NCBI RefSeq assembly: GCF_054482595.1
Contig: NZ_CM137008.1
Length of the DNA: 64,000 nt
Strand: one strand, 5' to 3'
A program made the position numbers. Below are positions 60,001-64,000 of the stretch, one piece after another (positions within the stretch are counted from its first letter, which is position 1; every line of letters starts with the position of its first letter).

Positions 60001-63000
60001 ACCACCGAAAATGAAGCATTGCTCAGGGGGAAGCTGCCACTCGTATGAGTTCTCTGAACCATGATAACCAGTATTTTTCGTTTTGGGTGATTTGTTTATC
60101 GTTACAGCTACATACAGTTCATGTACCATTAAAAAATAATAAAGGTTAATTAGTATTATTTATAGAAGTATGTTTATGTAATTCTACCGTGTAAATGAAC
60201 CCTGTAATTCTACCTTGTAAATACACCTTGTAACCAAGTCCTGTAGAAGTCTGTCTCATAGAGGTATCTGTGCAGTGATATTCTCTGTAGTAGTACTTGT
60301 AACTCTGTTCTTAACTCTCTCTTCAGTAATGTAGTCCCGCAACACCTGAATATAAATCTGTAATGTTCACACACTGACTGTAACGTGCTTTGTTAAGTAA
60401 TGTCTGCTATTTTTTTTCTGTTATTTTTCCTGTTGTTTTCTGTATTTTGTTGTATGGTGTAATAACTATTCTGAACCCGTCATCACCTTTATAGCTAAGA
60501 GTATGACTTCGCCAGTGTTGATACTGTGGATAACGGTGATTAAGGAATTACTGTTAATGATCTGTTCCTGCAGCTCACCTGATGAGTTTTGGTAGTAATA
60601 CGTAAAAGAGTATGCCTCATGTCATTAAAAAGTCTTCCGGAGTGTTGTTTAACCCTGTACCTCTGTTACTCATGTAGTACGTTGCGGAAAGCTACGTTAA
60701 TTGTAATATCTGGTTATGGCGTTATGCCTTCAGTATTAAAAACATCTTTTACCGGAGAAACTGGGAAGTGGAAAGGCTTTCGGGATAACGTCAGGCCATT
60801 ATGACGATATTACGTTAATCACAGTACAAGATAACGAGAGGGTAATGGAATTTTAAACCAGAGTAGTTCCACTGTTGTTCACTGGAAAAAGTGATTTCCC
60901 ACGCGCGTTATAAGCTTACTCCAGAGGAGATGGAAGCCTTCAACTCTGCGGTCGATCACCGGCTGGCAGAACTGACCATGAACAAACTTTACGATCGTGT
61001 TCCCGCTTCAGTCTGGAAATATGTTACCTGATAAATGTTTCTGATGAAGTACAGTCGTCACAATGACATCACTTCAGATATTATCTGCGCTGTGATTGAC
61101 TGTCACGTATGCCGTTCTCTGTATGGTTCTGATACCCGGGTGTGGTCCCACTTTCTCTGTGGCGCCCGGGGAGTTGTGAACCTGCACGTCTTCGTGTGAT
61201 AACGTTTTCTTCAAAAATTACGCCAGCGCTTCTTCCTGTGTTACAGAACACGAGGAAGAAACATGAAGACTTACAACACCAATCCCGGTTACGAAATGGA
61301 TCCCCAGCTCCTGACACACTTTAACCAGCATCTGGATTCATTATTCGGGGTATATTCGAAACTGTTACCGTTCAGAATGGATTTTGCTTACCGAAAAAAC
61401 ACCCTCAGCTACAGATGTGCCTGCAGGTACGCCATGTGCGCGGAGATACTGCGACTGATTAACGAAGTGGGAGAGAAACTGGTCGGGTATGCCTGGGTAA
61501 TGGAATATACGGAACGTAAAGGGCTTCACATTCATTTTGTGGGCTATCTGAACGGTCAGAGCCACAGGAGTTCGTATCTGGTATCCAGATTGATGGGAGA
61601 TATCTGGAGGCGGGTTACCGGGGGTGATGGTTACTACCACTGGTGCCGGTTTAATAAAAATTATCCGGTAAACATTAACCACGTCATTCACTATTCAGAT
61701 CACAAAGCGGTGAATGCCTTACGCTATGCCCTCAGCTACCTGGCCAAACGAGAACAGAAAGAATGTGGCATCATCCTGAAATGCAGCGGGCTTCCTGAAA
61801 AAAGTAACCGGGGTCGACCGCGACTGGGCAGCACCCTGCCGGAGACTTATTCTCTGGTGTAAGACCCTGAACGACAACTACGGGCTGGCGCTAATTGTTA
61901 CGGTCGGTTCCGGAGGCCACTTCAGGGACTCTGCGCATTTTTTACGACATGGCTATTCCGTATGAACCATACGGAGATTTAACCATGGCACATTCTTTAC
62001 CATTCCTTCCGGCAACCGATACAGCGCATCCTCCGATGTCCATCCCTGCCTGCTGACAGTTTTTTACGCCGGTGGGCCATTGTGTGACAACCACAGTGCT
62101 GTAACAGCAACCAGCCTGCTTTACCCAAACTCCAGTCCAGATTTTAACTGAACCGCCATTCACACCCTGACCACACTGCCCGTACCGGGACAGCTGTTGC
62201 CTGCGTGTCGTCTGGCTGCTGAGGAATATGACGATGTACGCAAAATCCTTTATTGCATTTGATGGCAACGGGCGTCTGACGGGTGCCCGTACCGCACAGA
62301 CTGCACCTTACGATCGCTACACTTGCCACCTTTGCGGCAGTGCGCTCAGATACCACCCGCAATACGACACTGAGCGTCCCTGGTTTGAACACACTGACAA
62401 CGGGCTGACGGAGCACGGTCAGCAGTGCCCTTATGTCAGACCGGAACGCAGGGAGATACAACTGATTAAGCGTTTGCAGCAATTCGTACCGGATGCCTTA
62501 CCCGTGGTGCGTAAAGCCAGCCGGCACTGCAGACAATGTCATCACGATTATTATGGGGAGCGGTACTGCACGCACAGCCATACCGGGCACTTCAGTGAGG
62601 AGGGGGTGGCAGAATGAACGGTATAAAAACGGGGCTGGGGATCACGCCGGGTGAACACATTATCAGTGCTGATTCTGCGCTCAGCAGAAATATCCGGCAG
62701 TGTTTCTGCCTTTCCTGTCATGGCCGGTTGATTTTGCAGACAGATGCTCAGGGGGCGTGGTTTGAGCACGATTTACATGTCCTGAGCGAGCAACAGAAGG
62801 CAGCCTGCGTGGTGCTGAATCCGGAAAAGTCCCACCCTTACATTGAGGATATGGAGATGTTTTTATCGCCATTACCGGTCGTGCTGGAGTGGCATTGTGT
62901 GATGTGTGAGCAGTTTTTTCATGGGAAGAAATTCTGTGAGGCCTGTGGTACGGGGATTTATTGCAGAGCGGTATGTACGAAGTCTGTTTACAGCTACCAG

Positions 63001-64000
63001 CCAGACTTGTTTCAGGACTGCGGAGGTGCGAGTACTTAATCCGAAATCTCCGCTCTGCGCAGGGCGTTCAGAGATATCGCAACCTGCATTTTATCCGGTG
63101 TTTCGCACCTGCCCCGTTCGTGACACAAAGGCGTGACACCGGATATCCGCAGTCCTGCTTACCTGAATAAAACCCGGGGTATTGATTGTGTACTGTGGTG
63201 CGAAATCGCACCGTGATCGCGGATTCGCCGAATCCGCACTGTGGTGTCAACCAACCATACGCGAGAGTCCTCTCCGTATTTATCAGTGCCTCAGGACGAT
63301 TTCTGCATAGTTAATCCAGGGGGCTGCATTGTTTATTTCCCTGCTAATGGATGTGACATCCAGGATATTCATGATCCTGATTTCCCTGAGCAGTATCAGC
63401 GCTTATTGGCACGTCTGGATTATCTGACGAAGCCCGATGCTAAAGCATCAGGTCAGCGTAACTCTGGCTACAGCGGTTTTTGACCTGTTGTAACTGTAAG
63501 GTGATTTATTATGTATACAGAATCAAACGTTAAGCTTTCCTGTAACGCCCTCTGGCAAAAGTGTGTCCTTGCAACTCTGTATCGGGCTGCAGCCACACAT
63601 CCTGAAATTAAATTATTACAATTTAAATTAATACCAGGACAGGGTATTAATAAGGCCATTCCCTCTCTGATGGCTGATTTTACTGGTGAACTGCATAGAC
63701 TCATTTCTGAATATTTGCAGTGTAAGCGACGTAAAGATAAATCTGTTGAGCCCACCCCTTTATATTATCTCTGGAGTAGGGAGGCTGTGGCTAACGATAC
63801 CACTCCTTATCTTATGGTGCTGCTACTTAATAACGATGTCTGGTGTAAGAGTCGTGAGGTGGTGGTTCTCAGAAATCTGATTGAGCAGGCGTGGGGAAAA
63901 GTATTGGGTGAAGATAACTCCATTACACATCTGGTTGTGTATCCTGAAGTGCTGTCGTTGGTATTTGATGCAGCTAACACATACAACGCTGAGCCTGGTG

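What the first reader, a model, noticed from the sequence alone, without database searches (positions are those of the whole stretch)
61263..64000. Gp2-like gene followed by two coupled Cys/His-rich proteins and a further ORF
Four co-directional plus-strand genes; the two zinc-ribbon-like ORFs overlap at start and stop and carry several CxxC and CxxCHH motifs. This looks like the replication or regulatory end of the island and may pair with the repeats upstream, but none of the products can be assigned a function from sequence alone.
Basis: inference. Interest (0 to 1): 0.3.

Follow-up and report, generated by a model that had tools for sequence, protein, structure and literature searches.

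The report
Genomic-island nicking enzyme and zinc-ribbon pair
This is the conserved but functionally untested core of a very common family of E. coli genomic islands: a rolling-circle-type DNA-nicking enzyme, two small coupled zinc-binding proteins, and decayed copies of the enzyme gene, all already present and annotated in thousands of genomes.

Summary
Window 61263-64000 carries co-directional plus-strand genes: a 199-aa Gp2/YagK/YfjJ-type protein, two paralogous Cys/His-rich proteins overlapping by ATGA, and a further ORF that runs off the window (complete to 64077 in identical DNA).

ORF1 is a Rep-class HUH endonuclease. Its HUH motif, upstream Glu and YxxxYxxK tyrosine motif are conserved, and the predicted fold matches viral Rep nucleases. 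The two zinc proteins each have the full DUF7828 + Zn_ribbon_11 architecture, so they are tandem paralogs, not fragments of one gene. Their family is small and was found only in Enterobacterales. The last ORF is a paralog that has lost both catalytic motifs.

In Proteus, Klebsiella/Enterobacter, Citrobacter and Yersinia the order HUH gene, AlpA, zinc-ribbon gene(s), variable cargo recurs. Where the flank reached far enough (Proteus), the integrase follows. This supports "replication/regulatory end of the island".

The best-supported mechanism is inferred, not shown. After AlpA/integrase-driven excision, the HUH enzyme nicks the island circle for rolling-circle replication or transfer, and the zinc pair acts as an accessory. 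Identical sequences are already annotated in RefSeq. Interest is modest.

The parts
60882..61031 (+). Truncated Hha/YmoA-family paralog (49 aa as annotated; lacks the N-terminal third)
   Evidence: Pfam HHA 4.9e-20, matching profile positions 16-57 of 57. RefSeq CDS WP_072146520. A full-length 70-aa hha occupies the same position in L020, and the DNA aligns with a deletion.
61263..61862 (+). ORF1: 199-aa Rep-class HUH endonuclease of the Gp2/YagK/YfjJ superfamily, with a C-terminal RGRPR (AT-hook-like) tail
   Evidence: Weak Pfam hits to REP_ORF2-G2P and YagK_YfjJ_C. Invariant R38, D40, W78, E81, H89, H91, Y159 and K162 across 36 homologs, including K-12 YagK and YfjJ. YALSYLAK gives YxxxYxxK. 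AF2 pLDDT 83, pTM 0.81. Fold matches viral Rep nucleases. dN/dS 0.20-0.32. pI 9.4.
61905..61992 (+). Relic of the upstream region and start codon (ATG 61985) of a YagK-type gene that fills this slot in sister islands
   Evidence: 84-94% identical to the DNA immediately 5' of the YagK-type genes of L017, L018 and L020. The gene body itself is missing here.
62234..62617 (+). ZnR-A: 127-aa DUF7828 + Zn_ribbon_11 protein of the 'MYAKSFIA' clade. This allele has Ser in place of the last ribbon Cys.
   Evidence: DUF7828 4e-31; Zn_ribbon_11 22.3 bits, below the cutoff of 24. Other E. coli copies read YCTHC(H/Q)TG where the window reads YCTHSHTG. dN/dS 0.07-0.28. The clade contains every first-of-pair gene sampled.
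62614..63039 (+). ZnR-B: 141-aa DUF7828 + Zn_ribbon_11 protein, translationally coupled to ZnR-A through an ATGA overlap
   Evidence: DUF7828 4e-22 and Zn_ribbon_11 4e-15. Conserved pattern CxxC..WFEH..C plus WxCxxC..CxxCxTGIYS. AF2 pLDDT 86. dN/dS 0.16-0.32.
63331..63483 (+). 3' stump (last ~50 codons) of a YagK-type HUH gene; a pseudogene remnant
   Evidence: Pfam YagK_YfjJ_C profile positions 119-167 only. tblastn to YagK residues 144-204 with no N-terminal part upstream. The full 204-aa gene is intact in L022, and DNA similarity starts at window 63331.
63511..64000 (+). ORF4: YagK/YfjJ paralog without the HUH and Tyr motifs. It continues to window-equivalent 64077 (188 aa).
   Evidence: YagK_YfjJ_C 5.7e-10. 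TPYLMV replaces HxH, and VLEQTAQAY replaces (D/S)YLxK. Complete in L001 and L014. Found in 1838 E. coli genomes. dN/dS 0.22-0.36 on few substitutions.

Best explanation
The region is the conserved HUH-nuclease plus zinc-ribbon core module of the CP4-57/CP4-44-type islands of Enterobacterales. These islands integrate at tRNA or tmRNA genes and often carry defence cargo. The window holds a mosaic copy.

Shown:
- ORF1 has the fold and the conserved HUH, Glu and YxxxYxxK residues of a Rep-class HUH endonuclease.
- ZnR-A and ZnR-B are complete, translationally coupled paralogs, each with two Cys/His clusters that look like metal sites. The A-type forms its own clade and is always the first gene of a pair.
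- Across Enterobacterales a zinc-ribbon gene is always preceded by an HUH gene and accompanied by AlpA. Variable cargo follows, and in Proteus (L023) the integrase follows that.
- ORF4 and the 63331-63483 stump are a catalytically dead paralog and a remnant.

Inferred:
- When the operon is expressed, AlpA turns on the integrase and the island excises. This is known for CP4-57.
- The HUH enzyme then nicks the excised circle at a site not yet identified and binds the 5' end covalently through Tyr155 or Tyr159. This primes rolling-circle copying, giving a transient rise in copy number or concatemers that a helper phage can package.
- The zinc-ribbon pair works as a hetero-oligomeric accessory or regulator of this step. 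It more likely binds protein or single-stranded nucleic acid than acts as a classical basic DNA binder.
- ORF4 may modulate the active enzyme, as gpX does for gpII in Ff phages.
For: HUH assignment:
- R38, D40, W78, E81, H89, H91, Y159 and K162 are invariant in 36 homologs down to 18% identity.
- The Tyr motif lies C-terminal to HUH, which is the Rep-class order. YALSYLAK fits the two-tyrosine YxxxYxxK pattern of phiX174 gpA (own knowledge).
- AF2 pTM is 0.81.
- Foldseek against viral models: top hit 'Inovirus Gp2' at E 1e-8, TM 0.66; 90 hits at E<=1e-3, including parvovirus NS1 and a microvirus replication initiator.

Functional genes: dN/dS is 0.07-0.36 for all four.

Module conservation:
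- HUH, AlpA, then ZnR (one or two copies) recurs in L004, L007, L008, L023, L025/26 and L027. L009 has AlpA first.
- E. coli copies keep HUH, ZnR-A, ZnR-B with the ATGA overlap.
- The HUH slot is filled by either of two subtypes about 20% identical, and the window keeps a relic of the displaced one.

Position in the island:
- The integrase lies about 4 kb beyond ZnR in Proteus.
- K-12 CP4-57 has intA-alpA-yfjI-yfjJ.

Precedents:
- Pseudomonas tmRNA islands share the IntY/AlpA/Gp2-like/RadC core. They are phage satellites, and their excised form is circular or concatemeric (PMC12595487).
- AlpA overexpression induces CP4-57 excision (PMC10107115).
Against: - No nick site or origin was found. 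No non-coding motif is shared among the three ORF1-type islands, and iteron-like repeats occur in only 4 of 9 islands, with unrelated sequences.
- ORF1 scores below Pfam's gathering thresholds.
- CP4-57-cured strains are obtained after AlpA induction by plating and isolating colonies. The excised K-12 island is therefore not stably maintained, which argues against efficient autonomous replication.
- ZnR-B is acidic (pI 5.7) and the family median pI is 7.6, so DNA binding is not implied.
- The window's ZnR-A allele has lost a ribbon Cys and the conserved Trp.
- No experiment on any YagK/YfjJ or DUF7828 protein was found in the literature.
Confidence: 0.55

Rival explanations
1. Mobilisation module. 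The HUH protein is the island's relaxase. It nicks an oriT in the divergent intergenic region, and a co-resident conjugative plasmid's secretion system transfers the single strand. The DUF932, antirestriction, RadC and CbeA/CbtA block enters first, like a plasmid leading region. AlpA and the zinc-ribbon proteins are relaxosome accessories.
For: - The HUH operon is transcribed divergently from a block containing DUF932, an ArdB/KlcA-type antirestriction protein and RadC. This resembles plasmid leading-region content (own knowledge).
- Some islands carry short tandem repeats in that intergenic region.
- Rep-fold HUH enzymes do serve as relaxases in some integrative mobilisable elements (own knowledge).
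- The islands encode no conjugation machinery of their own, so any transfer needs a helper.
Against: - The motif order is Rep-class (HUH, then Tyr), not Mob-class.
- No oriT-like conserved hairpin or motif was found.
- The module is almost never on plasmids: 30 of 72,556 plasmid records, several of which are megabase-sized records that look like chromosomes.
- The only transfer route shown for islands with this core is phage transduction.
Confidence: 0.2
2. Domesticated regulators. The HUH-fold proteins and zinc-ribbon proteins no longer cut DNA. They act as DNA- or protein-binding regulators of island genes (int, cargo, toxin-antitoxin), or they sense or interfere with infecting phages.
For: - A catalytically dead paralog (ORF4) is retained under apparent purifying selection in 1838 genomes. 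A non-nuclease role therefore exists in this family.
- The module sits with AlpA and an Hha paralog, both regulators.
- Cargo immediately downstream is often anti-phage.
Against: - The HUH, Glu and Tyr residues are invariant across both active subtypes down to 18% identity. That is hard to explain without catalysis.
- No PADLOC defence model matches any of the proteins.
Confidence: 0.15
3. Decaying junk. The genes are relics of a dead element, with no current function.
For: - The locus is a mosaic with a gene stump, a truncated hha and a relic of a displaced gene.
- IS elements disrupt ORF1 in other strains.
- The window's ZnR-A allele carries substitutions at a Cys and a Trp that are conserved in the family.
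Against: - dN/dS is well below 1 for all four ORFs.
- Reading frames are intact.
- Gene order is conserved across at least four families of Enterobacterales.
- The ATGA coupling is conserved in the E. coli copies that carry this ZnR-B type.
Confidence: 0.06
4. The ORFs are fragments of a single disrupted larger gene.
For: - The 63241-63483 ORF is indeed a fragment of a larger gene.
- Database entries include chimeric or fused ZnR forms (P0074, P0072, P0067; a 454-aa fusion P0277).
Against: - ZnR-A and ZnR-B each cover the whole DUF7828 + Zn_ribbon_11 architecture and are only 25% identical.
- Single-gene homologs are 120-160 aa.
- A-type and B-type genes are separate clades.
- ORF1 and ORF4 are each full-length relative to the 189-215-aa homologs.
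Confidence: 0.02

Closest known systems
E. coli K-12 cryptic prophages CP4-57 (intA-yfjH-alpA-yfjI-yfjJ) and CP4-6 (intF...yagL-yagK)
   Same: The island type is the same, with GTPase, DUF932, antirestriction, RadC and CbtA/CbeA-type genes. A YagK/YfjJ-family HUH protein lies near AlpA and the integrase. YagK and YfjJ share the invariant R, D, W, E, HxH and YxxK residues with ORF1.
   Different: In the K-12 stretches examined, no zinc-ribbon gene is annotated next to yfjJ or yagK. ORF1 is only 19-24% identical to YfjJ and YagK. ORF1 also has a second Tyr (YxxxY) and an RGRPR tail that they lack. The function of YagK and YfjJ is itself unknown.
Rep-class HUH rolling-circle initiators (Ff/inovirus gpII, phiX174 gpA, phage P2 A, parvovirus NS1/Rep)
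   Same: HUH motif on a beta strand, an upstream acidic ligand, and the catalytic Tyr on a helix C-terminal to HUH. The YxxxYxxK spacing resembles gpA. The predicted fold matches NS1/Rep nuclease domains and a viral 'Inovirus Gp2' model. The only segment hhalign pairs with P2 A is its HUH strand.
   Different: ORF1 is a bare ~200-aa nuclease domain with no helicase or other extension. No origin was identified. tblastn found no more than 26% identity to anything in 50,697 phage genomes. hhalign to P2 A is not significant (probability 1%). Activity is untested.
Pseudomonas tmRNA-integrated islands I23/I44/I55 (jumbo-phage satellites; PMC12595487)
   Same: The core comprises a tyrosine integrase, AlpA, an adjacent inovirus Gp2-like protein, RadC and variable anti-phage cargo. 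The excised form is circular or concatemeric.
   Different: The host order differs. No DUF7828/Zn_ribbon_11 genes are reported there, and every named member of that family sampled here is from Enterobacterales. A helper phage for the E. coli islands is unknown.
P2 Ogr / P4 Delta zinc-finger late-gene activators
   Same: Small CxxC...CxxC zinc proteins of P2/P4-type elements. P4 Delta is a tandem duplication, which loosely parallels the tandem ZnR pair (own knowledge).
   Different: No detectable homology. hhalign probability is 3.3% over 10 columns, covering only a CxxC. ZnR proteins have an extra CoiA_N-like CCHC domain.
N-terminal zinc-finger domain of the competence protein CoiA (Pfam CoiA_N) and DUF7830
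   Same: The pattern CxxC...(W/Y)FEH. 14 of 38 family members give sub-threshold CoiA_N hits (best 6.9e-5) and 13 give DUF7830 hits.
   Different: ZnR proteins lack CoiA's PD-(D/E)XK nuclease domain. Neither window protein hits CoiA_N at E<=1. The role of CoiA_N is itself undefined.

Membership tests
HUH endonuclease superfamily, Rep class | HUH motif (two His separated by a hydrophobic residue) on a beta strand | tested here: met
   GLHIHFVGY: H89 and H91 are invariant in 36 homologs. The motif lies in predicted strand E87-97.
HUH endonuclease superfamily, Rep class | Catalytic Tyr motif (YxxK or YxxxYxxK) located C-terminal to HUH; Mob-class relaxases have it N-terminal | tested here: met
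   RYALSYLAK: Y159 and K162 are invariant. Y155 is conserved within the ORF1 subtype. The motif lies on predicted helix H147-161.
HUH endonuclease superfamily, Rep class | Third metal ligand (acidic residue) a few residues before HUH | tested here: inconclusive
   E81 is invariant. Its spacing resembles Glu-x7-HxH of AAV Rep (own knowledge). Model coordinates could not be inspected for geometry.
HUH endonuclease superfamily, Rep class | Rep nuclease fold | tested here: met
HUH endonuclease superfamily, Rep class | Site-specific ssDNA nicking with a covalent 5'-phosphotyrosine intermediate | not testable with these tools
   Needs biochemistry.
Pfam YagK_YfjJ_C (PF11726) / REP_ORF2-G2P (PF23343) | Score above the curated gathering threshold | tested here: not met
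   ORF1 scores 22.4 against a cutoff of 25.8, and 23.8 against 27.8. Homology is nevertheless clear: a profile of the ORF1 subtype plus YagK and YfjJ retrieves PF11726 members at E ~1e-53. ORF4 (39.8 bits) and the stump (28.8 bits) do pass.
DUF7828 + Zn_ribbon_11 'putative zinc ribbon protein' family | Both Pfam domains above threshold, in the order DUF7828 then Zn_ribbon_11 | tested here: met
   ZnR-B: 78.2 and 55.7 bits. ZnR-A: 107 bits for DUF7828, but Zn_ribbon_11 scores 22.3 against a cutoff of 24, so that domain just misses in this allele, which has Cys to Ser.
DUF7828 + Zn_ribbon_11 'putative zinc ribbon protein' family | Conserved ligand pattern CxxC...(W/Y)FEH...C plus CxxC...CxxC | tested here: met
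   C32, C35, F50, H52 and C95 are invariant. C65, C98, C108 and C111 are conserved in at least 90% of 38 members. The window's ZnR-A lacks the last Cys. Zinc binding itself was not tested.
Ogr/Delta zinc-finger transcription activators | Sequence or profile homology to P2 Ogr | tested here: not met
   hhalign probability 3.3%, 10 columns. No Ogr_Delta Pfam hit.
CoiA_N-like zinc fingers | Pfam CoiA_N match above threshold | tested here: not met
   Only sub-threshold hits, in 14 of 38 family members (best 6.9e-5), and none for the window proteins. A remote relationship is possible.
Known anti-phage defence systems (PADLOC-DB) | Match to any defence-protein model | tested here: not met
   No hit at E<=0.1 for any of the five ORFs.
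CP4-57-type island core module (HUH - AlpA - cargo - int) | HUH gene adjacent to an AlpA-family gene, with the integrase at that end of the island | tested here: inconclusive
   Met in relatives. In this island the AlpA-family gene lies about 2.6 kb upstream on the opposite strand (L001 17663-17872). No intact integrase is annotated in the stretch of identical DNA examined, which runs to about 20 kb past the window end.

The most novel reading that the evidence does not exclude
The HUH, AlpA and zinc-ribbon genes together form the excision-and-amplification switch of a very large family of defence-carrying Enterobacterales islands that behave as phage satellites, as the Pseudomonas I55 island does. 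On this reading the YagK/YfjJ-type nuclease makes rolling-circle concatemers of the excised island for hijacked packaging. The Enterobacterales-specific double-zinc A/B pair would be a new kind of helper-sensing or origin-selecting adaptor with a fold not matched in the PDB.
Probability: 0.2. Interest if true: 0.65.

Novelty: already known. Interest (0 to 1): 0.3.

Why it matters
These islands sit in most E. coli genomes. Zinc-ribbon DNA matches occur in 3853 of 5426 complete genomes, with up to 7 copies each. The islands carry adhesins, toxin-antitoxin pairs, metabolic operons and anti-phage systems. How they move is unknown for the enterobacterial members.

An intact rolling-circle nuclease, conserved next to AlpA and tied to a lineage-specific zinc-protein pair, gives a concrete hypothesis that is cheap to test. 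It is also a defined set of point mutants for asking how such "cryptic prophages" replicate or transfer.

As sequence the locus is ordinary. Identical proteins are in RefSeq under Pfam-derived names.

Tried and rejected
- **Sequence search of the PDB.** Nothing better than E 0.5-1.6 for ORF1 and ZnR-B.
- **NCBIfam.** No family for any of the four proteins.
- **PADLOC.** No hit.
- **PHROGs.** Only families of unknown function.
- **Rfam on 59600-64000.** No match at E<=1.
- **afdb50 library.** Not available.
- **The search for related loci with the 38-sequence ZnR alignment.** I ran no further search on a narrower query.
- **Search for an origin or nick site.** k-mers shared with at most one mismatch among the three ORF1-type loci (window, L025, L007) gave nothing outside coding homology. 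k=11 was within the shuffle range, and k=12-13 gave none.
- **Iteron-like repeats.** Present upstream in 4 of 9 islands, with unrelated sequences.
- **Structured element 63013-63157.** Good fold z-scores (-3.7 and -3.9) but zero compensatory changes in 7 copies.
- **Ogr/Delta relationship.** Rejected.
- **hhalign of the HUH family against phage P2 A.** Not significant.
- **Literature on YagK, YfjJ, DUF7828, DUF3279 and Zn_ribbon_11.** No functional study found.
- **The CP4-57 excision paper (PMC2754048).** Not held in the library.
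Full report
**Observation**

- ORF1: 61263-61862, 199 aa.
- ZnR-A: ORF 62228-62617. RefSeq and all homologs start at 62234 with MYAKSF.
- ZnR-B: 62614-63039, 141 aa.
- ORF4: starts at 63511 and leaves the window.

ZnR-A's stop and ZnR-B's start overlap as ATGA, behind a GGAGG. ZnR-A has 6 Cys and 10 His, with CHLC and CRQCHH. ZnR-B has 11 Cys and 7 His, with CLSCH, CVMC and CEAC. In DNA identical to the window from 59730 to 64000 (strain Santai, L001), ORF4 ends at window-equivalent 64077 and is 188 aa.

The 80-codon ORF 63241-63483 matches only the C-terminal third of the YagK/YfjJ domain.

**Source and setting**

The window is E. coli chromosome. Positions 60800-64000 are 100% identical in seven complete genomes and at least 80% covered in 372. 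Parts of this stretch occur in 4235 of 5426 genomes.

The block lies in a CP4-type island that starts near window 40878. The island carries:
- Ag43 and a YeeP-like GTPase;
- DUF932, an antirestriction protein, a JAB-domain (RadC-like) protein and DUF987;
- CbeA/CbtA, DUF5983, DUF957 and DUF4942.

An IS2 copy at about 58401-59729 is specific to the window's lineage.

**ORF1 is a Rep-class HUH endonuclease**

Pfam gives only sub-threshold hits to REP_ORF2-G2P and YagK_YfjJ_C. Homolog searches and alignments are clearer.
- ORF1-type proteins from Salmonella, Hafnia, Yersinia and Klebsiella/Enterobacter are 38-63% identical to ORF1.
- K-12 YagK and YfjJ and their relatives are 18-24% identical.
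- All of them share invariant R38, D40, W78, E81, H89, H91, Y159 and K162.

The motifs read GLHIHFVGY (HUH) and RYALSYLAK. This is the YxxxYxxK two-tyrosine pattern of phiX174 gpA (own knowledge). It lies C-terminal to HUH, which is the Rep-class order rather than the relaxase order.

The AlphaFold model is confident (pLDDT 83, pTM 0.81).
- Foldseek against viral models puts "Inovirus Gp2" first (E 1e-8, TM 0.66). It gives 90 hits at E<=1e-3, including parvovirus NS1 and a microvirus replication initiator.

Other properties:
- ORF1 is basic (pI 9.4).
- It ends in an RGRPR, AT-hook-like tail that is conserved within its subtype.
- It evolves under purifying selection (dN/dS 0.20-0.32).
- Despite the name, tblastn found no close relative in 50,697 phage genomes.

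**The zinc-ribbon pair**

Each protein has the whole DUF7828 + Zn_ribbon_11 architecture, and the two are only 25% identical. They are tandem paralogs, not halves of a broken gene.

An exhaustive profile search of 1.84 billion cluster representatives found only 258 relatives at E<=1e-3, mostly 120-160 aa. Every named member sampled is from Enterobacterales: Enterobacteriaceae, Yersiniaceae, Pectobacteriaceae, Morganellaceae and Pantoea.

The conserved pattern has two parts:
- CxxC...(W/Y)FEH...C, a likely CCHC site;
- WxCxxC...KxCxxCxTGIYS, a classic ribbon.

What the structure and family searches add:
- The ZnR-B model is confident in both domains (pLDDT 86).
- Fourteen of 38 members give sub-threshold hits to the CoiA N-terminal zinc finger.
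- There is no relation to Ogr/Delta or to any PADLOC model.

In a neighbour-joining tree all "MYAKSFIA" proteins form one clade. That clade contains every first-of-pair gene sampled (window, L015, L025, L011, L027). Second-of-pair genes are scattered among the single-copy forms. This suggests a specialised A-type partner.

Both genes are under purifying selection (0.07-0.28 and 0.16-0.32). The ATGA overlap is kept in all E. coli copies that carry this ZnR-B type. E. coli C, which has a different B-type gene, shows a 13-nt overlap instead.

Three points argue for caution:
- The window's ZnR-A allele reads YCTHSHTG where other copies read YCTHC(H/Q)TG. It also has Arg in place of the conserved Trp.
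- ZnR-B is acidic (pI 5.7), so DNA binding should not be assumed.
- Chimeric forms between paralogs exist in the databases.

The family is absent from the phage collection and rare on plasmids.

**ORF4 and the stump**

ORF4 passes the YagK_YfjJ_C threshold. However, it has TPYLMV where the family has HxH, and VLEQTAQAY where it has (D/S)YLxK. It is therefore a catalytically dead paralog. It is still intact and shows dN/dS 0.22-0.36, though on few substitutions. It occurs in 1838 genomes.

In strain B1_2 (L022) a full 204-aa YagK-type gene directly precedes it. The window shares that DNA only from 63331 onward, which is the last ~50 codons. tblastn finds no N-terminal part upstream.

**A mosaic with gene displacement**

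Window 61905-61992, in the gap between ORF1 and ZnR-A, is 84-94% identical to the DNA just 5' of the YagK-type genes in sister islands L017, L018 and L020, up to the ATG at 61985. In those islands the YagK-type gene sits directly before ZnR-A. In the window, L016 and L019, that gene is gone and the distantly related ORF1-type gene stands just upstream. An HUH gene is thus kept in front of the zinc pair even when the gene itself is swapped.

**Conserved neighbourhood**

Distant ZnR homologs (20-30% identity) were placed on contigs from:
- a Yersinia/Pectobacterium-type cluster (L004);
- Yersinia intermedia (L007);
- two unnamed sources (L008, L009);
- Proteus (L023);
- Klebsiella/Enterobacter (L025, L026);
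- Citrobacter (L027).

In all seven independent contexts with enough flank, an HUH gene precedes the ZnR gene(s) and an AlpA gene is adjacent. AlpA lies between them in six contexts and upstream in L009. Where enough upstream flank was available (L004, L023, L025-L028), the operon diverges from the block that includes DUF932.

What follows ZnR varies and is often anti-phage: McrBC, SMEK/CTD10-MC6-DUF2326, dynamin-like GTPases, SNF2 plus DUF1156. In Proteus the integrase follows about 4 kb further on.

K-12 CP4-57 reads intA-yfjH-alpA-yfjI-yfjJ, then the AbpAB and RnlAB cargo. In the window's island the AlpA-family gene lies upstream on the other strand. Beyond 64000 there is no primase, helicase or integrase. 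There are only fragments, a 238-aa ORF with no Pfam match (annotated as a 233-aa hypothetical protein), IS remnants and a cit/acnB metabolic block.

**Mechanism**

Shown:
- ORF1 has the Rep nuclease fold and conserved catalytic residues.
- All the genes are under purifying selection.
- The module is conserved and lies near the integrase in relatives.
- The A/B zinc pair is translationally coupled.

From the literature:
- AlpA overexpression induces CP4-57 excision (PMC10107115).
- Pseudomonas islands with an IntY/AlpA/Gp2-like/RadC core are phage satellites. Their excised DNA is circular or concatemeric (PMC12595487).

Inferred: after excision the HUH enzyme nicks the circle, attaches through Tyr, and primes rolling-circle copying. 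The zinc pair acts as an accessory or regulator. ORF4 may modulate the active enzyme, as gpX does for gpII in Ff phages (own knowledge).

Against this: no nick site was found, and CP4-57 is readily cured after excision. Any replication is therefore transient or depends on a helper.

The main rival is a relaxase role in plasmid-mediated mobilisation. The divergent, leading-region-like gene block fits that idea. The Rep-class motif order and the near-absence of the module from plasmids fit it less well.

**Novelty and verdict**

The proteins are in RefSeq under the names "inovirus-type Gp2 protein", "putative zinc ribbon protein", "DUF7828 domain-containing protein" and "YagK/YfjJ domain-containing protein". 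The island type is the one known from the K-12 cryptic prophages. I found no functional study of either family.

The locus is therefore already known as sequence and ordinary in occurrence. What this analysis adds:
- a firm HUH assignment with intact catalytic motifs;
- the conserved HUH, AlpA, zinc-ribbon association;
- the A/B structure of the zinc family;
- the mosaic history of this particular copy.

Interest is modest (0.3). The satellite-type amplification reading, if true, would be worth considerably more.

Noticed in passing
window 58401-59729: IS2 (IS3-family) insertion that is absent from otherwise identical DNA of strain Santai. It cuts the 5' end of a 263-aa minus-strand gene of unknown function (window ORF 57719-58435; intact at L001 18256-19047).
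   Followed up: partly
window 60177-60233: Five tandem 13-bp TGTAA-type repeats in the divergent intergenic region upstream of the module. Unrelated short tandem repeats sit in the equivalent region of L017 (14 bp, 3-4 overlapping copies), L027 (23 bp) and L007 (35 bp). There are none in L004, L025, L016 or L008. They could be iterons or regulator sites, but this is unproven.
   Followed up: partly
window 60882-61031: Truncated Hha/YmoA paralog (matches Hha profile positions 16-57 of 57) directly upstream of ORF1. It is full-length (70 aa) in sister island L020 and frameshifted in L018. Hha is reported to promote CP4-57 excision (own knowledge, not checked here).
   Followed up: partly
window 63013-63157: Nested inverted repeats: a 12-bp perfect outer stem and a 15-bp inner stem, overlapping the last 27 nt of ZnR-B. 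The fold z-score is -3.7 as DNA and -3.9 as RNA (0 of 200 shuffles reach it). Seven E. coli copies show no compensatory changes, and the outer stem is broken in L017.
   Followed up: partly
window 62234-62617: The window's ZnR-A allele has Ser in place of the fourth ribbon Cys and Arg in place of the conserved Trp before CxxC. L014 shares both changes. L019 shares only the Arg.
   Followed up: yes
L016 5085-7812; L004 15251-16489; L023 10400-13320; L025 12040-17746; L026 13816-18435: The DNA downstream of the zinc-ribbon genes differs between islands and often encodes anti-phage-type genes (McrBC, SMEK/CTD10-MC6-DUF2326, dynamin-like GTPases, SNF2 plus DUF1156). It looks like a cargo hotspot.
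   Followed up: partly
L009 1531-4161: An unusual relative: a 350-aa HUH protein with an N-terminal DUF488-N3a-like extension, followed by a 454-aa protein whose first 135 residues are the ZnR module fused to about 320 residues with no family match.
   Followed up: no
L011 725-1357; L012 662-1378: In two metagenomic contigs an A-type ZnR gene is followed by an unannotated 210-238-aa gene. In L011 a second ZnR gene comes after it. No significant Pfam match.
   Followed up: no
window 40878 (island boundary) and L001 1067-1226: The window and strain Santai share the island from window 40878 onward but differ to the left of it. In Santai a frameshifted integrase fragment lies next to cadC at that end, which suggests a composite or tandem island.
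   Followed up: no
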